DNA from: Paramecium tetraurelia
Lineage: Eukaryota
Length of the DNA: 64,000 bases
Direction: 5' to 3'
Assembly: GCA_000165425.1 (NCBI GenBank)
Contig: CT868014.1
Span: 62,001 to 126,000, forward strand
This document shows, one piece after another, positions 1 to 25,718 of this stretch. The stretch's first letter is position 1; the number at the start of each line of letters is the position of its first letter. Under the pieces are notes generated by a model, which was not told where the DNA came from, ran no database searches, and saw only the letters and a list, made by a program, of their open reading frames with translations. The translations under genes were made by a program, and so were the position numbers.

Positions 1-145
1 TTTGGATTCTATTTAAATCAATGTTGGAGGATTATATTAATGATTTAAAATATGACCATTCTCGTTTCGGATTTGCAAAGTGGGTTATGTATTTCTCTAT
101 GACCAAATCAAAAAACTCAATTATGGCATTGCTAATTTCCTACAT
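1..145 (-). CDS. 5' part of an unknown protein, truncated by the window edge
   Basis: ATG at 145 (minus). Reads MQEISNAIIEFFDLVIEKYITHFANPKREWSYFKSLIQ... to the edge in ciliate code. Confidence 0.5.
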
Positions 146-412
146 CCTTATTATTTATTAGCAGTTAATATAATTTATTAAAATTTTATTTCAATTAGTT
201 AAATATTCCCTAATTCCTACTAACTAATTCACTTATATTAAATTGATTAAATTTCAATCAAGCAAGAATTTCTAATGCCGAATCGAAGAATCGTAAGATC
301 TTAATCATATTCTATTTTTGGCTTTTGATCCCCAAATTAATAAAGATTAAATTTGGTAATAATAAGTTAAATATTGCTTATAAGTACATTTTCAATAAAA
401 AGAATAAGATTT

Positions 413-1442
413 ATGAATAAACTAAATAAACCTGAATCAAGAGTTTAACGCAACATTCGAATAGTTATGTCCAATATCAAGGAGGAACAATAATAAAAAG
501 GTACCCTTGTAATTTGAATGTTATTAAGTTGTAAAATATTTCAGTCATCTCAAACAAGATGCTGAGTTAGCAAAACCTAGATATGCTCATTCTTAATTTC
601 CATAGTAGAAATTTTATTAAACTGTGGCAGAACCCAGTCTCATTGATTTTTCACTTGAAAATCTGAATCTAAAAGTCAGTAGAGTGGGAACCCTAGTGGA
701 ACCCATGATTCCAATAGAAGAAATTCCGCATAAACCAATAATTAAGAAATTTAAAGTCTTGAAGCATCCAGTGTTCCTAACTGAAAATACAATTAACAAG
801 ATAGAACCAACTGAAAGACATAATGAATTACCTACATCGATAAAAAGAAGCACAAAATAATAAATGATGAATAATGAAATTCTTCATCGCTTAGGATTGC
901 TGAGTGTACAAGCTAAGCGAGAACTCCAAATTGAAAAACTCAGCAACAGAGCTCTCAAGGTTTCCAAAAGCAAAGAAATACCTTCAAAAGTTCATAAATA
1001 ACTCGAAGCAATCACATAATAGTTGAAAGAGAATGAGAAGCCAGAACTCATTTAATTAACTTAAAGATGTACTACCTCAGCATCTGGTGCATCCAGAAAA
1101 GCCTACGATTATCAAGACGAGTATTTAGTGGATTGTCTTACTGAAAGACTTAATTTGGTTTACAGTGTTTCGACCTTTAAGAATAGACCTCAAACAAGAT
1201 TAGCTAAGAGAAAAATTCACAACTTTTTCAAAACAGTAACCATGGCGCATCTGGAGAACTTAGACGAAATTAAGAAGGATGATCAAAGTATTCAGATTTA
1301 AATTAAATCAATTAAAGAGAAGTTATAATTATGTAAGAGACGCCTACTAGATTATAATGATGAGATAGAAATAGCCCTTACAGAAGATATTAAAGGGCAA
1401 GTCATTGAATATAAAAATATTATTAAAAATAATAAAAAATGA
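413..1442 (+). CDS. Hypothetical protein (~330 aa) with a C-terminal coiled-coil-like region
   Basis: ATG 413, one intron (gtacccttg...ttattaag, ~501-528), then an open frame with TAA/TAG=Gln to TGA at 1440-1442. Confidence 0.7.
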
Positions 1443-1905: not shown

Positions 1906-4488
1906 ATGGATCTAAGGGATGAAAATTACAATGCATCATTAACCTAAATTGAGCTTAGTGTTGAGGCACTTACTAATATTCTTTATTATTAAGAATTTTT
2001 TAAAAGAATATCTAGGTTTTTAAGTTTAAAGGATGTGTTGAATCTTGGATAAACTTGTCGTATTTTAAATGAAATCGTTGAGGTTTAATATGAATAATTT
2101 ATACCTAGAAACATTAAGAATTCTTCGGAGAGATCTATTATAAATTATTTCTTAATGAATAACTTGAAATGGCTTTGGAGTTAAACTACCCAGATATACA
2201 GAGCAGATAGTAGATTAGGTTATCGAACTTTGATAAATCTTGCATCGATTGGAAGAGTTAACTGTCAAAAATGATTTTAACAAAGTAAGTTAGACTTAAA
2301 ATTTTAATAGATAAACTTTGTAATTTCCATTTATCCTATGCGACGTAGTGTTTCCCAAGCCCATTTTAACGAGGGAAACAATAGGAATCTATTGCGAATC
2401 CGAGTTTCAAATCATGTTAGCGTAACGTTTAGAACTGGAACAAAAAGGGTTTGACAAGTTATTTGACTATTAATTTATTTAGAATGAAGTAATTTTATAA
2501 TCTTATGGAAACTTGTAGTTGATGAAGGAACTAAAGCAAAACAAATAGCAAATCTTGACACAAATGCAAGCTAAGTTATAACAAAATGAAAAACTTAAAA
2601 GTTAATTTTTATAGTATCGATGGAGTTTGTAGGATGAATAGTATTAAAGTGAATTTCAACAATTGAATCTCCAAAAGTTGGACATTGTCGAATAAGATCA
2701 TGAAGGAAAGGTGGAACCAATTGGAGATGAATAGATTTGCATCTTTAATTTAATGGAAGAGTTTTATACTTCTGTGGAGTGTTATTTGGAAGGGTTGTAG
2801 AAGTATTTTAGTGTATTTATAAATGTTAATACTATCAACAGTATTGATTTGCTTTGTGAATATGTAATGTATTGGCAAGCTTATAGCAACGCCATCATAG
2901 ATTTGTCAACATTAATCTATCCATTCGAGAATATCATTAATGAGTTACATCAAAACTTATTCCCAAAGTATCCCTAATATCCAAAATTTTCAGTTTGGAG
3001 AGTAATGACGAAAATGTGGATTAAATATGTAAACTTCAAATTAATCAAAAGATAATTCGAAATCAACAATTCTAAACTATATTATTAGAATGTTTTATTC
3101 GTCTACTCTCTGCTTAAAGACAACAATTGTTCAAAAAAGAATTTGAATAAGGAGTTAGTGAAGATCTAGAAAATGCTCAATCATTTTAAATAACCTACGA
3201 AATATATGATAATTTCCTACTTAAATAAAAGAATAGTTACAAAGATCAATTTTAAATTGATACTACGCATTAGGTTTATACTGAAGTTATAGATTTATTA
3301 AGAAGCTTTTGTCGATGTGTCTAGGACATATCAATTAGTGAGGTCAATCATAATGATTAACTTAGGTATCCGTACATTGGTTAGGTCACAAAGACTGTTG
3401 TTATGAGGAATTTTATGAATAGTTGAGTGAGAAGATATAATATGAATCCAGTTTTTATTATGATGAGAGCAGATAAGTATTTGGATCAAATATTATTTCA
3501 TTTATTGAGTTTATTAAATTTGATAAGGAGTAAATTCATAATTATTTAAATCTAGATTCTTATAGTAAATTTTGCCTGAACCTCTAATATTCAAAATAGA
3601 GAATCTTCAGAGAGAACATATATATACTTCCTTGTATTACTTTTTAGAAGTTTCTTATCTTTAGAAATTTGTATAGACCAACAAGGATTAAATCATGTTG
3701 GCTTATCAAAATTCTAAGATCAAATCTCCTAAATTAGAACGTAATTCAAATACGTCCTCTTAAAATAATGAACATCTTGAAACTTAAGGAGATTCTAATT
3801 TAAATGACCCTTAAAAATTCTTTAATTTGTGTTTAGAAAACAGCAATTTAGATTTAGAAGAGCTTTTAATCAAAGAGAAAAGCAAAAATCAATAAGACAA
3901 TTTGTTAGAAATCATCAAAGTTGCACTTTCTTAGATGAATCTTGATTCATTATAGAATTTAGATAACATAGATCAATTTGAATCCTAAAAAGATTTATTT
4001 GATTTAAGCAGGGCTCATAAAATACATAGATCCTTTTCAAATACTAGATGTAAGAATATCCCAAATATGTATTTTAGTGGATGCAGAACAAACGGAAGTC
4101 CCTGATGAAGTGATCAAGGCAGCAAAACAGTTTCTATTAAAAGATGCCCAATTTTCTAAACTATATCTCGTTTTCACTGAATATTCCAATTACTATGATA
4201 AAATGCTGATCTAAGTTATCACCAAAGACAGAGATGTTGAATTAATAAATAATGATAGAAAAGTGCCTAGAGTAAGGGGAATAAACTTATCATTAGATCC
4301 TACCTGAATACCTTTAAAACTTTTATTATGTTTCTAACTACTTGACTTATTCTGTACTCGAGGAAAATATTGTGGAAGATCAAGAAGATGAATTTGAAGA
4401 TTTAGATTAACCTCCAAATCTGTCAAAGGATCTATCCAAATTGAAAAGTATAAGTTATAATAAAATTAGAAAATTCTGTTCAATTTGA
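1906..4488 (+). CDS. Large protein with an N-terminal F-box motif and cullin-repeat-like helical region
   Basis: F-box-like EFFKRISRFLSLKDVLNLGQTCRILNEIVE. Cullin-like IDLLCEYVMYWQAYSNAIIDLSTLIYPFEN...FSVWRVMTKMWIKYV...LLRSFCRCVQDI...YEEFYEQLSEKIQYESSFYYDE. Several tiny introns. The 3' end is 4488, or ~4540 if a last intron is spliced. Confidence 0.65.
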
Positions 4489-4657
4489 GTATTATTACTC
4501 AGAAGGAGAAGATGATCATGGCTTCAGCGATGGAGCTTGATTGGCAGTAGTTTAAATTAATAGGAATGATAATATAAATATTAATTTAATTCTGATTATT
4601 ACATTTTCCTCATAATAAAATAATAGATCTTAAATGCATTTTTATGCTAAATATAAA

Positions 4658-6912: not shown

Positions 6913-9205
6913 TCAAGCTGGACAGCCACTGCTACTAGTTGTCATCGCACATAGTAGCCATGCTGACTTATCGTAAACACCGGCAAAAACTAACGAAAAA
7001 ATTGCACTTAATTTAATGAGAATATTTAAAGATGGGCCAGAGGTGTCTTTTAAAGGATCTCCAACAGTGTCACCTATAACTGCTGCTTTGTGCTCATCAG
7101 TTCCTTTGCCTTTGACTATATCATCTAAAAAATTTATACTATAAATTACCAATTTCGCAAAGATCAGCCTCAATGTACTTCTTGGCATTATCCCAGGCAC
7201 CTCCTGAATTGGCTGATGATGTGGCCATGCATACTCCAGATACTAAAATACCTGGTAATAATCCAGCTACAGCAGTTGGGCCAAGGAATAATCCCAAAGC
7301 CAGAGGTACTAAAATTACAAGTAATCCTGGGGCGAACATCTCTTAAAGAGAAGATTTGGTTGAAATAGCAATGCATCTGTCATAATCTGGTTTCTCTCTT
7401 CCATCTCTTATTCCTGGTCTTTCTGCTAGCTACCTTCTTACTTCTTCAACCATTTCAAATGCAGCCCTTCCAACAGATTTAAGTGTAAAGGCAGAGAACC
7501 AATAAGGAATCATAGCTCCAATTAAGAGTCCTAAAAATACTAATGGAGAATTGACTCCTAAATCTGTTAGTGGATGCTTATTGAGAGAGTTAGATGCTCT
7601 TGTGATAAAAGCTCCGTACAAAGAGAAAGCCACCAGTGCAGCTGATCCAATAGCAAATCCCTTTCCGATGGCAGCAGTGCAATTACCAGCAGCATCAAGT
7701 TGATCAGTTCTGTGTCTAACATCCTATGGATATCCAACCATTTCTGCAATACCTCCAGCATTATCAGAGACAGGACCATATGCATCAATTGCCAATCCAA
7801 TAGTCAAAGTAGATAGCATTCCTAAGGCACTTAAAGCAACTCCAAACATTGACAAAAGAGAATATGAAATGAAGGCAGTAAATGCTAGCAAGAATACTGG
7901 AATAATAGTAGAGAGATTTCCCAAGGCAATTCCATATATAATATTAGTAGCTGCTCCTGTTCCACATGCTTAAGCTACTTCTTGTACTGGTCTATAGGAA
8001 TGGGAAGTGTAATATTCAGTGACAAATCCGATGATGCACCCACTAATGAGTCCGACAACAGTGCAAAGCCATGCATGAATAGGTTGTCTATCTACTGGTG
8101 CCAATCCAAAGATTCTCTCTGGTAAAGTTAGATATGCAACATAATAAAGAGCAGGTAGCATTAAAAGAGTGGATAGAATCAACTAGAATTTCAAAGCGTT
8201 TGACACTTAATCAAAATTTTCTTTTTCACCAACAAATGCAAAAATGGAAACTATAAAACAACTATAAAATTTGGATGAATTAATTACACAATAATTCCTG
8301 CTGCTGAAACCAATAATGGGTAATAAAATGTTGTAGGATGATAATAGAATGATGGGGATACACTACATACTACCAAAGCAGCACAAGTAGCCTCAGCAAA
8401 GGATCCAAATAAGTCTGCACCCATACCTGCAATATCTCCAACATTGTCTCCTACATTATCTGCTATGGTTGCAGGATTATTTGGACTGTCTTCTTTGAAA
8501 TCATTTTCAACTTTTCCAACTAGATCTGCTCCTACATCAGCTGCTTTTGTATAGATTCCTCCTCCAACTCTGCCAAATAACGCTATTACTGATCCTCCTA
8601 ATCCATATCCTGCTATGGCTTCAAACAATTGTTAAAAGTCTCTATAATCCTTTATAAACCAATTTATGTAGATTCCCAAAAGTATTGTTAAACTGAGTAA
8701 TGCAAAACTTACCAATGCAAAACCCATAACACATCCAGCTCTATATGCCACTGCGAATGCATCTGTCATCTTTGTCTATGCGCAATAGGCACAGCGATAG
8801 TTAGAGAAAGTAGCCACTCTCATTCCAATAAATCCTATTGTTTATTTTAATATCCGAACCTGATATGATTGAAGTGAGTGCGCCTACTAAAAAGGCTACA
8901 GTAGTCCAAGCTTATCCGAGGACTGGCTCAACGATAAAGAATATTAACAATGCTAATAAGATAATTACAACTCCAATGTATCTATATTCTGCAGCCAAAA
9001 ATGCAGCTGCTCCACTTTCTATGTGAGATGCTATTTCTAACAGGAGTTAGGAATGGTGATCTTGATAATCATCCTGGAAATTATTATATTAATTGGGAGT
9101 GCCAATCTTTATTCGGTTAAGTTTGTATGCATTATAGACTGCCCACAGTAATCCAATAGTTGTCGATGCTAGAATTAAGATGTTTGATAACTCAAACGAT
9201 ATCAT
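6913..9205 (-). CDS. Vacuolar H+-translocating pyrophosphatase (K+-dependent type)
   Basis: [72 protein letters not shown] (Ala, not Lys, at the K+-dependence position), [14 protein letters not shown]. Confidence 0.97.
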
Positions 9206-9242
9206 TTTATTTAAATAAATTTAATTTGTTTTACTTATTAAT

Positions 9243-9770
9243 ATGTAGCAATCTAAACCTCAACATCAGACTCAGTCACTAAGAAGATGTGGGCTTCACG
9301 TAGTAAACAATTTACTTTAAACAGACAAATACACTAGTAATGATTTCGATAGAGTGGCAGAAGAGATGAAAAGAGAAACTAACAATTCTCATTATACATA
9401 CTTTTTAGGAAATTACGATTTAAATGTTATCGAGCGGATTTTACTTAAAGAATCATATGAGTTATAATGGATTAGATAGAACCAAGCAATTACTGAAGAG
9501 CTGATGGCTGACGAATCAGTAGAAGGGCTTTTAATTAATAAGATCAAGGAGATATCGTTAATTGAGAGATTATGTTAATGGGAACCCAGACATTGGGTTT
9601 GTATTCGAAAAAGCAGGAAATCTGACAATACTTTGGAATTCTATTACCATGATTCATAATTGAAGGATGCTTAACTGTATTAGACCAAAGATTCGATTAG
9701 TTTATTGTAAGAATTGTAAAAGAATAAAGATAATCACTTGCTATTAGTAAAGAAAATGTAGCTTCATTGA
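9243..9770 (+). CDS. Josephin-domain deubiquitinase (JOSD1/2-like)
   Basis: Intronless, 175 aa. HQTQSLRRCGLHVVNNLLQ, GNYDLNVI, RHWVCIRK, FYYHDSQL give an intact Cys-His-Asp triad. Confidence 0.85.
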
Positions 9771-23506: not shown

Positions 23507-24000
23507 TCATTGCTACTTAATATCAAATTTCTCTAATTCACCGATGAATTGATTATAAAAGTTTATTTGTTAAGGCACAGCTCTTGCACTCACTATTGGC
23601 AATTCATAGGTTATCAATAACAAAACCCTCTTCCCATTGAGCTTTTTGCAAATTCCCTATTCAATAATAAATTTATTCTTTTACTCTTGCCAATGAGATT
23701 CCTTCTCCTACATCTGCATCTCCTCTTCTTCCATAAATCAGAGGAGGATGCCATCTGTGAACTTCATAATGTTCTCCTAATAATACAAAGCCTGCCCCAA
23801 TTGTATTGTCTCTCACATCGTAGGCTTTCAAGTATGGTGCCAATTCCTCCTTTGTGGCTGCACAGTTCTTTTGAGTTATCACATTCAGATCCTCATCAAA
23901 TATGATGGCTTTCGCCCACTAAATTACATCTCAAGTTTGATACTTCATCTTGTTTCTTTAATTCTGTTTATAAGAACGCAGGGTCTAAACCTTAATCCAT
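23507..24000 (-). CDS. Profilin-like protein
   Basis: WAKAIIFDED...GFVLLGEHYEVHRWHPPLIYGRRG...GISLAR...LLITYELP fits the profilin-fold pattern. Two introns. Confidence 0.6.
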
Positions 24001-24171
24001 TAATATTTAAAAAATAAAAATATATTTAAAAATTAAAATATCTTTCCAGTCCATAAATTACACTATCTATATCATATTGTAAATAATATTATTAAAATAT
24101 ATATATATATTTTTCTTATTCTTATTATTTTTTTACATTAGTATTAATTTATTTAAATTTTTTACAATTAA

Positions 24172-25718
24172 ATGGATCAATTATACTCCCAGATCGAAGA
24201 ATTAAGTAAAGTTGGATTTCCTACCTAAAAACTTAAAGAACTTTATCAAACCCATCAAATATCGGATTTATTGGAACTCCTAAAATTCACACAATAGAAC
24301 AAAGATTAATTCAATAAGACTATTGCTTATCTTGATGCTCTCTTCTAAGATTCCGATATCTACAAAGAACTTTTAATAAGAGAGAACTCTTTTGAATTTG
24401 TTCAAACTTTACTTTCTCATTAAAACAAAAAAGTAAGATAATTACTTTCAGAATGCATAGAAAATAATGATTTTGAGTTTGGACAATTGATTTCTAAATT
24501 AGTCTAAGAAAAGTCACCATTACTCAATCTAGTACTTTAAGTCATCTTTTTCCAACTTTCTGATCCTGAATCAGAAGTTGGCTTAAAAGCTCTGAGAGTA
24601 ATTAAAAAATTGTTCAAATTTGTCGATGAATCTTTAAAAACGCTATTAAGTAGTGAACTCTTTGTCACTTATATCACCTAAGGATTAAATAACAAAAATG
24701 AAGTCATTCAATTGAGATTTGTTGAAATATTGATTTATATAACTAACTTAGATCAAGCTATCCAATAACCTTACAACAATCTATTTAAGATAGTTTTTAA
24801 ACTCTACAATACTGACGATATTTTGGTTAAATTGAACATGATTGAATTGATTGCTGGAATGGGTAATTCAAAATGGAACTCAGAACTTATGGTAAACCAA
24901 TCCTTTTTTAAGAATATTCTTAATTCCGCATTCACCAATAATGACGATTTCTACACTTAAAAATATGAAGTCTTACTAGTAGCCAGAATGCTTAGTTAAA
25001 GAGTCATTAAATTTACTCCTATCCTTGAAAAAAACCTAATTAAACTATTATCAGTATGGCTATCAACCAATTCAAGTGAATAAATAGAGGGGGCCTTAGA
25101 AATTATATCAAGCTTCGTTACATTTACTGAAGGATTCAATACTATTATAAAGAATAGTGACTTTTTAATATTATTTTGTAATTTGTTTATTTTATCATAG
25201 TCCAATATTTGTATTCAACAAAAGATGTCATAAAACTCAAAGCTCTTAATTGTTATGTTAGCTTCTTTGTTATAGATTCAACAACACCTAAGCCACCTGG
25301 TAAGGTACTTTGGGTGTATTCATTGTTTGGAAATGTTTCCAAAACATTAAGTTAATTCCACTCAAATGATCAGGTTAGTGAAGCAACTATATATCTGATA
25401 AAATAATTGAATACTCCTTTTGGGGAAGTAGAAAAAACCATATTAGAATTAACCATGAGTAAACTTTATTTTTATTCTTTAGATTTGTTGGAATGGGATG
25501 AAATATTCACTAATATTATTGCCAATTAATAATTATTAGTATATTTTTCCAAGATTTCTCAAAACAAGGAGATCTTTGATTCAAAGAATCGAGTCAAATA
25601 ATAGATCATCAATTTATGCACTAATAAATATAAGGCAGAAGAGTACTAGGAGTATGCTAAAACATTGCAAAACTTAAAATTGTAAAAGGATGTCTAGTAC
25701 GCTTCAAATGTTTAATGA
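24172..25718 (+). CDS. ARM/HEAT-repeat protein, PSMD5 (S5b/Hsm3)-like proteasome assembly chaperone
   Basis: Helical repeats, about 500 aa. EVIQLRFVEIL and YNTDDILVKLNMIELI resemble PSMD5. Confidence 0.6.

What the first reader, a model, noticed from the sequence alone, without database searches (positions are those of the whole stretch)
1906..4488. F-box fused to cullin N-terminal repeats, with no cullin C-terminal module
Seen: an F-box-like motif at ~1970-2085. At ~2750-3620 a helical segment tracks the cullin repeat 1-2 pattern in order: LL.EY...W.AY, the W...V helix, L....R, L+.SF..C+.D+, YE.F...+..ES.FY.DE. I found no cullin-homology, Rbx1-binding or neddylation winged-helix domain downstream. 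Known: in SCF ligases the F-box and Cul1 repeat 1 are on separate proteins and both contact Skp1. Inference: one chain carrying both could clamp or sequester Skp1, act as an SCF decoy, or use cullin repeats to bind substrate. That would be an unusual ubiquitin-ligase regulator.
Basis: partly seen in the sequence, partly recalled or inferred. Interest (0 to 1): 0.7.

Follow-up and report, generated by a model that had tools for sequence, protein, structure and literature searches.

The report
F-box fused to RING-less cullin stalk
A Paramecium gene encodes one protein that joins an F-box to the helical N-terminal stalk of a cullin but lacks the catalytic half of a cullin, an apparently undescribed architecture shared by other ciliates that may form ligase-dead look-alikes of SCF ubiquitin ligases.

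Summary
The window is Paramecium (aurelia group) macronuclear DNA. One + strand gene (ATG 1906, stop ending 4540, not 4488) has 10 exons and 9 introns of 22-30 nt. It encodes 801 aa, 94% identical to a 799-aa P. octaurelia protein.

- **F-box:** aa 19-60 form a divergent F-box. It is below Pfam cutoffs here and above them in 12 of 42 long homologues. A family profile hits the FBXO3 F-box at E 1.2e-5.
- **Cullin-like stalk:** aa 119-529 (2312-3646) resemble the cullin N-terminal domain.
  - A 147-sequence family profile hits the Cul1 N-terminal domain at E 3.5e-8.
  - An AlphaFold model (pLDDT 77, pTM 0.81) gives only cullin-family chains as its nine best matches among 48,161 PDB chains (Z 14.5-8.1; next Exo84, 6.0).
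  - A Blepharisma member gives the same result.
- **No catalytic half:** no cullin-homology, Rbx1-binding or neddylation domain is present.
- **Range:** every family member that carries an organism name is a ciliate (Paramecium, Platyophrya, Blepharisma).
- **Literature:** six searches found no description of this architecture.
- **Function:** this is inferred, not shown. My leading reading (about 0.35) is a RING-less, Skp1-bound pseudo-SCF. A canonical SCF receptor that uses the stalk to bind targets is nearly as likely.

The parts
1906..4540 (+). Whole gene: 10 exons (1906-2082, 2109-2284, 2311-2488, 2519-3028, 3052-3342, 3366-3529, 3556-4049, 4078-4271, 4297-4447, 4470-4540), 801 codons plus a TGA stop, ciliate code
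   Evidence: Splicing was worked out from frames and GT..AG introns. It was confirmed by 94.1% identity over the full length to P0001.
1960..2111 (+). Divergent F-box, three helices, aa 19-60 (interrupted by intron 2083-2108)
   Evidence: Pfam F-box-like 18.7 bits and F-box 18.3 bits, both below cutoff. Helices 19-36, 41-50 and 52-60 in the model. Aligned with above-cutoff F-boxes of homologues. The family profile hits the FBXO3 F-box at E 1.2e-5.
2115..2311 (+). Helical linker between the F-box and the cullin-like domain, aa 62-118
   Evidence: Helices 62-85, 89-101 and 107-120 in the model, with 10-residue block means of pLDDT 63-89. Coordinates.
2312..3646 (+). Cullin N-terminal-domain-like helical repeats (equivalent to cullin repeats 1 and 2, with insertions), aa 119-529. 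Holds the family motifs P.P.L.RE..FQ (2336-2425), RW (2618-2623), LL.EY...W..Y (2849-2884), YP.YPKFS.WR.M.K.W (2969-3054) and D.S.SE (3322-3380).
   Evidence: Family profile against the Cul1 N-terminal domain, E 3.5e-8. VIA-align: model 119/120..~525 aligns to Cul1 21..303, Z up to 15.3, rmsd 3.1 A over 237 residues. The nine best of 48,161 chains are all cullin family. Motif conservation. Coordinates.
3794..4368 (+). C-terminal helical region, aa 579-752, possibly a partial third cullin repeat
   Evidence: Helices 577-645 (block-mean pLDDT about 50-83) and 671-749 (above 90 for 671-750) in the model. Several cullin alignments run on to model residues 700-703, matching Cul1 ~331, Cul2 306 and Cul5 305. 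This part was not folded or searched on its own.
4369..4537 (+). Acidic, low-confidence tail, aa 753-801. No Cys at position -4, so no CaaX box.
   Evidence: pLDDT below 50 for 769-799. Sequence from the spliced model. The tail is conserved in P0001, P0004 and P0007.
2083..2108 (+). Intron 1, 26 nt, GT..AG
2285..2310 (+). Intron 2, 26 nt
2489..2518 (+). Intron 3, 30 nt
3029..3051 (+). Intron 4, 23 nt
3343..3365 (+). Intron 5, 23 nt (starts GTC)
3530..3555 (+). Intron 6, 26 nt
4050..4077 (+). Intron 7, 28 nt
4272..4296 (+). Intron 8, 25 nt
   Evidence: RNA reads of the close paralogue end with exon-8-like letters exactly at 4297.
4448..4469 (+). Intron 9, 22 nt.

Best explanation
SHOWN (confidence about 0.85). 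One Paramecium gene encodes an 801-aa member of a ciliate protein family. The family's fixed layout is an N-terminal F-box, a helical linker of about 60 residues, a cullin N-terminal-domain homologue (repeats 1-2 and perhaps part of 3) and a short acidic tail. It has none of the cullin C-terminal parts: no four-helix bundle, no Rbx1-binding alpha/beta domain, and no winged helix with the neddylation lysine. It therefore cannot recruit a RING/E2 or be neddylated as a cullin is.

INFERRED mechanism (about 0.35). The chain is a 'single-chain pseudo-SCF'. In solved SCF structures the F-box and helices H2/H5 of Cul1 repeat 1 sit side by side on one Skp1. That is established knowledge of the Cul1-Rbx1-Skp1-Skp2 structure, entry 1LDK. 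Fusing the two partners would keep this geometry:
- the F-box would hold the C-terminal helices of Skp1;
- the chain's own repeat 1 would cover the BTB face of Skp1 that Cul1 normally uses.

The product would be a stable, RING-less Skp1 complex that excludes Cul1-Rbx1. Its long stalk and conserved C-terminal helices would be free to hold other proteins. That would make it a non-SCF Skp1 scaffold or an SCF decoy rather than a ligase.

Not shown: Skp1 binding by either module, exclusion of Cul1, and any partner of the stalk.
For: Single gene
- The spliced frame is 94% identical over its full length to P0001. Homologues of 783-807 aa exist in five named Paramecium species.
- The intron between the F-box exon and the next exon is only 26 nt.
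- RNA-seq reads of two oligo-dT runs cover 2091-4612 on one strand.

F-box
- Sub-threshold Pfam match in the window.
- 12 of 42 long homologues pass a Pfam F-box cutoff, in the same alignment columns.
- 17 of 147 members match F-box-like and 16 of 147 match F-box at E<=0.01.
- A family profile hits the FBXO3 F-box at E 1.2e-5.

Cullin stalk
- Profile A2 hits the Cul1 N-terminal domain at E 3.5e-8 and 4e-8, collinear with Cul1 164-350. Cul5 N-terminal domains score 0.01-0.1.
- Pfam Cullin is the only family besides the F-box families matched by more than one member: 7 of 147, best E 1.1e-6, model positions 36-147 in the two hits listed.
- The P0001 model has pLDDT 77.3 and pTM 0.81.
- All 50 listed entries of the second-look alignment are cullin structures, Z 15.3-11.9.
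- In the unbiased search of 48,161 chains the nine best are Cul3, Cul2, Cul4B, Cul5, Cul3, Cul1, Cul1, APC2 and Cul7 (Z 14.5-8.1). The next is Exo84 at 6.0.
- The Blepharisma member P0129 (pLDDT 88.5, pTM 0.89) gives cullins as its nine best rows, Z 15.9-9.3. Its residues 83-499 align to Cul1 15-388.

For the clamp idea specifically
- By sequence the best solved relative is Cul1, the Skp1-binding cullin.
- The strongest family-wide conservation lies in the repeat-1 helices that align with Cul1 H4-H5. W294 and P330 are invariant, and Y290, F332, R336, M338 and W342 are at least 90% conserved in 36 sequences. In cullins, H5 is part of the adaptor-binding face (recalled knowledge).
- The domain order places the F-box directly upstream of repeat 1.
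Against: - No result here shows binding to Skp1.
- The F-box of the Paramecium branch is below both Pfam cutoffs. At E<=1 it is seen in only 5 of 12 Paramecium homologues. It lacks the usual Leu-Pro start, so it may have lost Skp1 binding.
- The sequence link to Cul1 depends on the alignment used. It is E 3.5e-8 with A2. It is only E 0.21 with the 54-sequence A5 and absent with the 12-sequence A1. Only two truncated Cul1 chains were listed, not the full-length ones.
- Foldseek alone gave no match at E<=0.001; its best was 6.2e-3.
- For helical repeats a Z near 14 can arise without kinship, according to the tool's own note.
- By structure, Cul3, Cul2 and Cul4B score as well as Cul1. The partner of repeat 1 need not be Skp1.
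- I could not align Cul1 helix H2, the other half of the Skp1 site, residue by residue.
- RNA depth over exon 1 (1906-2082) was 0 to 0.6, against 2-6 in the next bins. These reads do not prove that the F-box exon is on the same mRNA.
- Most F-box proteins work in ordinary SCF ligases, which favours the main rival.
Confidence: 0.35

Rival explanations
1. Canonical SCF substrate receptor. The F-box docks on Skp1-Cul1-Rbx1 as usual, and the cullin-derived stalk is simply the substrate-binding domain. Cullin repeat 1 evolved to bind BTB-fold adaptors, so the targets could be Skp1-like, Elongin C-like or BTB proteins. The protein would then be an adaptor-surveillance or cross-regulating ligase.
For: - This is the default for F-box proteins (established knowledge).
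- The F-box is well preserved in many family members (12 of 42 above a Pfam cutoff; profile hit to FBXO3).
- By structure the stalk resembles Cul3, Cul2 and Cul4B as well as it resembles Cul1. Repeat 1 therefore need not be specific for Skp1.
Against: - None of the 48,161 representative solved chains searched, and so no solved F-box protein among them, resembles the stalk. The best non-cullin rows are Z 6.0 for the Paramecium model and 9.2 for the Blepharisma model.
- By sequence the best solved relative is Cul1.
- Nothing here identifies a substrate.
Confidence: 0.3
2. Skp1-independent helical scaffold. The F-box in the Paramecium lineage is a relic, and the protein works only through its cullin-like stalk and C-terminal helices, with partners unrelated to SCF.
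For: - Sub-threshold F-box in the window.
- No F-box match at E<=1 in 7 of 12 Paramecium homologues.
- The Leu-Pro start is lost.
Against: - The F-box columns are still conserved among the Paramecium paralogues. Invariant residues in the 12-sequence alignment include L26, R34, F38, L39, L41, T50, L54, N55, E56 and V58.
- The F-box is fused in distant ciliates.
Confidence: 0.15
3. The helical domain is not a cullin homologue. It would be a convergent helical repeat or a CATCHR/Sec10-like domain, as in the yeast F-box protein Rcy1.
For: - Helical repeats give middling-to-high Z by chance, according to the tool notes.
- Foldseek E-values are weak.
- The Cul1 sequence hit weakens with other alignments.
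- Rcy1 is an F-box protein whose C-terminal third is Sec10-like (passages read in PMC2175155).
Against: - The profile hit to Cul1 at E 3.5e-8 is collinear.
- Pfam Cullin is the only recurrent non-F-box family, in 7 of 147 members.
- In two independent models cullins fill the top nine rows. Exocyst and MUN chains score only 4.5-6.0 for the Paramecium model and 6.0-7.5 for the Blepharisma model.
- No Sec10 Pfam hit at E<=1, and no CaaX box.
Confidence: 0.07
4. Annotation artefact. The F-box exon and the cullin-like exons belong to two separate genes or transcripts.
For: RNA depth over exon 1 is 0-0.6, against 2-6 just downstream.
Against: - Only a 26-nt GT..AG intron separates exon 1 from exon 2, and the frame is continuous.
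- The same N-terminus is in the gene models of several Paramecium species.
- The F-box is on the same chain in Blepharisma and in many uncultured relatives.
- Exon 1 is the extreme 5' end of an mRNA sampled by oligo-dT libraries, where low depth is expected (inference).
Confidence: 0.05

Closest known systems
Cullin-1 N-terminal domain (SCF scaffold; PDB 1LDK, 6WCQ)
   Same: Elongated stack of five-helix cullin repeats. Sequence-profile match E 3.5e-8, collinear with Cul1 164-350. Structural match from Cul1 residue ~21 to ~303, Z 11.3-15.3. The conserved aromatic pattern of helices H4-H5 is shared.
   Different: It stops after two to three repeats, with no four-helix bundle, Rbx1-binding domain or neddylation winged helix. 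It carries an F-box on its own N-terminus. It has family-specific insertions and motifs in repeat 1 (P.P.L.RE..FQ and RW[Y]). It is not a cullin by the family's defining C-terminal features.
Canonical F-box proteins (e.g. FBXO3, Skp2)
   Same: N-terminal three-helix F-box. The family profile matches the FBXO3 F-box at E 1.2e-5, and Pfam F-box is above cutoff in 12 of 42 long members.
   Different: The domain behind the F-box is a piece of the ligase scaffold itself, not a WD40, LRR, kelch or other known substrate-binding domain. The Paramecium F-box is below the Pfam cutoffs.
Non-SCF F-box proteins of yeast: Rcy1 (F-box + Sec10-like + CaaX) and Roy1
   Same: These are F-box proteins described as working with Skp1 outside a cullin ligase. 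Rcy1 has an all-helical domain of the wider 'cullin-repeat-like' fold class. Sources: PMC2175155, passages read; PMC3084679, start of the abstract in the search listing. The fold-class statement is recalled.
   Different: There is no Sec10 profile match and no CaaX box. Exocyst-type structures score Z 4.5-6.0 for the Paramecium model and 6.0-7.5 for the Blepharisma model, against 14.5-15.9 for cullins. There is no sequence relationship.
CACUL1/CAC1, a vertebrate protein with a cullin-like domain but no ligase module (recalled from memory, not examined in any call)
   Same: A cullin-derived domain without the Rbx1-binding and neddylation parts.
   Different: CACUL1 has no F-box as far as I recall. 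No comparison was made here.

Membership tests
F-box proteins (Pfam PF00646 / PF12937) | F-box motif of about 40-50 residues matching the family profile at the curated cutoff | tested here: inconclusive
   Window exon-1 frame: 18.3 bits (cutoff 20.5) and 18.7 bits (cutoff 24.3). P0001: 17.0 and 16.4 bits. The same alignment columns hold above-cutoff F-boxes in 12 of 42 long homologues. The family profile hits the FBXO3 F-box at E 1.2e-5.
F-box proteins (Pfam PF00646 / PF12937) | Three short helices at the site of the motif | tested here: met
   Helices 19-36, 41-50 and 52-60 in the P0001 model. Helices 6-11, 16-23, 27-33 and 36-48 in the Blepharisma model, with 10-residue block means of pLDDT 89-92 over residues 11-50.
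F-box proteins (Pfam PF00646 / PF12937) | Binds Skp1 through the F-box | not tested
Cullins (Pfam PF00888; cullin-RING ligase scaffolds) | N-terminal stalk of cullin repeats (five-helix bundles) | tested here: met
   Profile against the Cul1 N-terminal domain, E 3.5e-8. Z 14.5-15.3 to Cul1/2/3/4B over about 230-290 residues, with cullins alone at the top of 48,161 chains. Same result for the Blepharisma member. Pfam Cullin positions 36-147 are matched below cutoff in the two hits listed; 7 of 147 members match Cullin at E<=0.01.
Cullins (Pfam PF00888; cullin-RING ligase scaffolds) | Cullin-homology region: four-helix bundle and alpha/beta domain that binds Rbx1 | tested here: not met
   No Pfam Cullin match at E<=1 in 12 of 12 Paramecium proteins. 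No strand of three or more residues anywhere in the model. Only about 270 residues follow repeat 2, about 100 of them of low confidence.
Cullins (Pfam PF00888; cullin-RING ligase scaffolds) | C-terminal winged helix with the neddylation lysine (Pfam PF10557) | tested here: not met
   No Cullin_Nedd8 hit at E<=1. The tail is acidic and disordered (pLDDT below 50 for 769-799).
Rcy1/Pof6-type F-box proteins | Sec10-like C-terminal domain | tested here: not met
   No Sec10 Pfam match at E<=1 in 12 proteins. Exocyst chains Exo84, Exo70 and Sec15 score Z 6.0, 5.6 and 4.6, against 14.5 for cullins. A fold match that weak does not by itself exclude kinship.
Rcy1/Pof6-type F-box proteins | C-terminal CaaX prenylation box | tested here: not met
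   The spliced protein has no Cys four residues from its end. The same tail is in P0001, P0004 and P0007.

The most novel reading that the evidence does not exclude
Ciliates encode a built-in SCF decoy. A single chain supplies both of the surfaces that normally grip Skp1 (the F-box and cullin repeat 1) and so locks Skp1 into a RING-less complex. This would buffer or redirect the Skp1 pool and set how much SCF ligase the cell can assemble. The conserved C-terminal helices would possibly recruit a different, non-RING effector. It would be the first natural case of a ligase scaffold fragment fused to its own substrate-receptor motif.
Probability: 0.2. Interest if true: 0.8.

Novelty: new variant of a known kind. 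Interest (0 to 1): 0.62.

Why it matters
SCF ligases are built from separate parts: an F-box receptor, the Skp1 adaptor, the Cul1 scaffold and the Rbx1 RING. A conserved natural protein that fuses the receptor motif to the adaptor-binding end of the scaffold, and drops the catalytic end, is a new arrangement of these parts.

If it clamps Skp1, it would be a genetically encoded regulator or competitor of SCF assembly. It would also be a natural test of how Skp1 is shared among its partners. If instead it works inside a normal SCF, it points to ligases that use a cullin stalk to recognise adaptor proteins.

Either way it defines a cullin-derived domain family that Pfam finds only below its cutoff, in 7 of 147 members. 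The family is at least as old as the split between heterotrich and oligohymenophorean ciliates, an inference from the named members. Paramecium species keep up to four copies in the searches here (P. octaurelia).

Tried and rejected
1. Rcy1/Sec10 (CATCHR) idea. This was my first guess. I rejected it because there is no Sec10 Pfam hit, exocyst and MUN chains score far below cullins, and there is no CaaX box.

2. Raw unspliced ORF pieces in Pfam. They gave no Cullin hit. The 12-sequence Paramecium profile against PDB sequences gave nothing better than a Sin3 PAH domain at E 0.17. The cullin link appeared only after distant homologues were added.

3. Complex prediction. I ran the cullin-like domain (P0001 residues 105-545, no F-box) with Paramecium Skp1 (P0198). 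The verdict was 'no answer': score 0.00 against a mark of 0.34, folded by ESMFold2 without my alignments, and the controls were not run. This is neither support for nor evidence against binding.

4. ESM Atlas look-up of P0001. The best score was 0.86, to unnamed clusters, with weak F-box/FBXO47 leads. It was not used.

5. Word-based homologue search with alignment A2. It found only Paramecium proteins and added nothing on taxonomic range.

6. The look-up of sequencing runs. No holder of the stretch is on record as RNA. Two contig runs laid on the region (X3, X4) gave only 38-nt pieces. No joints were reported from the 58-nt raw reads, so the window's own introns are not confirmed by reads. The reads whose loose ends lie exactly at 4297 carry the paralogue's exon-8 letters.

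7. The window's whole genome is not held, so I could not survey Skp1, Cul1 and Rbx1 genes of this genome.

8. Earlier findings of this scan. There was nothing on this place or sequence. One unrelated F-box fusion in a red alga had no bearing.

9. Literature. Searches found no paper describing an F-box fused to cullin repeats. In the cullin-family survey PMC2785787 I read only passages. They mention no F-box fusion, and they describe all cullins in that survey as having the central cullin-homology region, which this family lacks. Subscription journals are not covered by the library.
Full report
**What the DNA is.** The region is AT-rich (GC 0.24-0.31). It is open only when TAA and TAG are read as Gln. 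It is broken by very short GT..AG introns. The longest exon finds proteins of 783-807 aa in Paramecium octaurelia, pentaurelia, primaurelia, sonneborni and tetraurelia. The best is P0001 of P. octaurelia, 90% identical over that exon. The window is therefore macronuclear DNA of an aurelia-group Paramecium. The window's own protein was not among the hits, so P0001 stood in for it in folds and profile searches.

**Gene model.** I used P0001 as a guide and spliced nine introns of 22-30 nt: 2083-2108, 2285-2310, 2489-2518, 3029-3051, 3343-3365, 3530-3555, 4050-4077, 4272-4296 and 4448-4469.
- The result is one 801-codon frame from ATG 1906 to a TGA ending at 4540.
- It has 33 TAA and 17 TAG codons in frame and no TGA.
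- It is 94.1% identical to P0001 over 801 alignment columns, with 754 of 799 aligned residues identical.
Most orthologues have the spliced acidic tail instead.

**Expression.** Raw reads of two oligo-dT RNA-seq runs (X21, X22) lie on 2091-4612.
- The first mate is on the minus strand, which in most stranded libraries means a plus-strand RNA. Depth is 1-10.
- Depth over exon 1 (1906-2082) is only 0-0.6, and no joints were reported from the 58-nt reads. These data show that the gene is transcribed. They do not prove that exon 1 is attached.
- The loose ends at 4297, 4334 and 4515, and the five sites with about half variant reads, fit the close paralogue (of the P0004 type). Its reads cross-map onto the window.
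- One gene is supported by three things: the 26-nt first intron, the shared N-terminus in the other Paramecium gene models, and the same fusion in distant ciliates (below).

**The F-box.**
- The exon-1 frame matches Pfam F-box-like at 18.7 bits (cutoff 24.3) and F-box at 18.3 bits (cutoff 20.5).
- Among 12 Paramecium homologues, 5 show such sub-threshold matches at E<=1 and 7 show none.
- A profile of the 12 (A1), run over 1.84 billion representatives, found 143 proteins at E<=0.001 and 27 at E<=1e-10.
- Of the 42 hits I picked as longest (350 aa or more), 12 pass a Pfam F-box or F-box-like cutoff at their N-terminus and 5 more match below cutoff.
- Of all 147 aligned family members, 17 match F-box-like and 16 match F-box at E<=0.01.
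- In the alignment of 36 long members (A3) the Paramecium residues 27-62 sit in the same columns as these F-boxes, but the usual Leu-Pro start is lost.
- A 54-sequence family profile (A5) hits the F-box of FBXO3 in the PDB at E 1.2e-5.
- I conclude that the F-box is real for the family and divergent in Paramecium.

**The cullin-like domain: sequence evidence.**
- Neither the raw ORFs nor the Paramecium proteins match Pfam Cullin. The 12-sequence profile finds nothing in the PDB.
- With 147 family members (A2), the profile hits the Cul1 N-terminal domain at E 3.5e-8 (6wcq_D) and 4e-8 (1ldk_A). Profile positions 169-346 align to Cul1 164-350, and a weak second stretch aligns to Cul1 85-137.
- Five Cul5 N-terminal chains follow at E 0.01-0.1.
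- Pfam Cullin is matched below cutoff by 7 of 147 members (best E 1.1e-6). In the two hits listed the match covers model positions 36-147. Cullin is the only family besides the F-box families matched by more than one member.
- Caveats: profile A5 scores 1ldk_A at only E 0.21, and one search listed only the two truncated Cul1 chains.

**The cullin-like domain: structure evidence.**
- AlphaFold2 of P0001 with A2 gave mean pLDDT 77.3 and pTM 0.81. The model is all helix. Low-confidence segments are 1-20, 555-579, 648-664 and 769-799.
- Foldseek against the PDB gave no match at E<=0.001. Its nine best rows are cullin N-terminal domains (best E 6.2e-3).
- VIA-align on Foldseek's candidates: all 50 listed entries are cullin structures, Z 15.3-11.9. 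For example, model 120-523 aligns to chain residues 22-300 of 9xzl_C at rmsd 3.1 A over 237 residues.
- The search that does not depend on Foldseek covered 48,161 chains. Its nine best are Cul3, Cul2, Cul4B, Cul5, Cul3, Cul1, Cul1, APC2 and Cul7 (Z 14.5 to 8.1). There is then a drop to Exo84 at 6.0 and Exo70 at 5.6.
- A second, independent model of the Blepharisma stoltei member P0129 (552 aa, F-box at 39.9 bits) has pLDDT 88.5 and pTM 0.89. Its nine best rows are again cullins (Z 15.9-9.3). Residues 83-499 align to Cul3 25-309, Cul2 6-306 and Cul1 15-388.
- The tool warns that helical repeats can reach Z about 14 without kinship. Here the cullins stand clear of all other folds in two models and agree with the sequence profile. 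I therefore accept homology with the cullin N-terminal domain.
- In window coordinates the domain is aa 119-529, or 2312-3646.

**What is missing.**
- No Cullin or Cullin_Nedd8 Pfam match exists at E<=1 in any of the 12 Paramecium proteins.
- The model has no beta strands.
- Only about 270 residues follow repeat 2. They comprise a low-confidence acidic stretch, helices 577-645 and 671-749, and a disordered acidic tail.
- Some cullin alignments continue to model residue ~700, matching Cul1 ~331. A partial third repeat is therefore possible. I did not fold this part alone, so I make no claim about its fold.
- The protein cannot be a cullin in the functional sense.

**Family anatomy and range.** Alignment A3 shows a fixed order:
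- the F-box;
- a proline-rich motif (L..P..P.P.L.RE......FQ..L);
- an RW[Y] motif;
- the LL.EY...W..Y helix;
- the YP.FP.FSIWR.M.K.W helix, which aligns with Cul1 helix H5;
- a D.S.NE motif.

W294 and P330 (P0001 numbering) are invariant. R211, W212, Y290, F332, R336, M338, W342 and D437 are at least 90% conserved.

Of 30 distant hits looked up, 4 carry an organism name: Platyophrya macrostoma (1) and Blepharisma stoltei (3). The other 26 are unnamed metagenome or transcriptome records. With Paramecium this spans three ciliate classes (class assignment recalled).

**Surroundings.** The neighbours are ordinary housekeeping genes: H+-pyrophosphatase, a Josephin protease, citrate synthase, an E1 dehydrogenase, V-ATPase subunit a, several kinases and ribosomal protein L19e. 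No Skp1, cullin or Rbx1 gene lies in the window. Gene order says little about function in this organism.

**How it may work.** The architecture is shown. The rest is inferred.
- In solved SCF structures the F-box and helices H2/H5 of Cul1 repeat 1 both sit on one Skp1 (established knowledge).
- A fusion of two such neighbours most simply keeps that geometry. I therefore favour a single-chain pseudo-SCF that grips Skp1 from both sides and excludes Cul1-Rbx1 (about 0.35).
- The main rival is an ordinary SCF receptor whose cullin stalk binds targets, perhaps BTB-fold adaptors (about 0.30).
- A Skp1-independent scaffold (0.15), a non-cullin helical domain (0.07) and a two-gene artefact (0.05) follow.
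- To test the key step I obtained a Paramecium Skp1 (P0198). I got it through a ciliate Skp1 fished from metagenome contigs. I then submitted the cullin-like domain with it. The job returned 'no answer', which is not evidence either way.

**Novelty.** Six full-text searches found no description of an F-box fused to cullin repeats. In the passages I read of the cullin-family survey PMC2785787, no such protein is mentioned. Public records name these proteins only 'F-box domain-containing' or 'uncharacterized'. Both domains are known; their union, together with the loss of the catalytic half, is what is new. I therefore rate it a new variant of a known kind.

Noticed in passing
window 2154, 2160, 3769, 4319, 4506; loose ends at 4297, 4334, 4515: About half of the RNA reads at five sites carry another base. 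Reads also break off at three places into letters that encode the close paralogue's residues (of the P0004 type). The paralogue is therefore expressed and spliced at the homologous intron, and its reads cross-map onto this gene.
   Followed up: partly
P0002, P0003 (P. pentaurelia, P. primaurelia orthologues), C-terminal ~35 residues: Their annotated C-termini differ from the conserved acidic tail of the other homologues.
   Followed up: no
P0166 (P. tetraurelia paralogue, 793 aa), residues ~55-115: Its N-terminal region departs from all paralogues just after the F-box, probably from mis-called introns. UniRef labels it 'RGS domain-containing', which nothing here supports.
   Followed up: no
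window 9066-9767 (+): An ORF with a Josephin domain (deubiquitinase family, Pfam E 6.5e-17) lies about 4.5 kb downstream. It is next to an H+-pyrophosphatase gene on the minus strand (6916-9259). Probably coincidental.
   Followed up: no
window 23941-25395 (+): An ORF with a borderline match to the proteasome non-ATPase subunit family PF10508 (23.1 bits, cutoff 23).
   Followed up: no
L011:98-583 (+): A metagenome contig carries a complete 162-aa Skp1 with three in-frame TAA/TAG codons, so it comes from a ciliate that reads them as Gln. It is 73% identical to Paramecium Skp1 and 81-83% identical to the Tetrahymena and Ichthyophthirius proteins.
   Followed up: partly
window 417-1442 (+): A 341-codon open frame directly upstream of the gene has no Pfam match. 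It is probably the neighbouring gene's last exon(s) and ends about 460 nt before the ATG at 1906.
   Followed up: no
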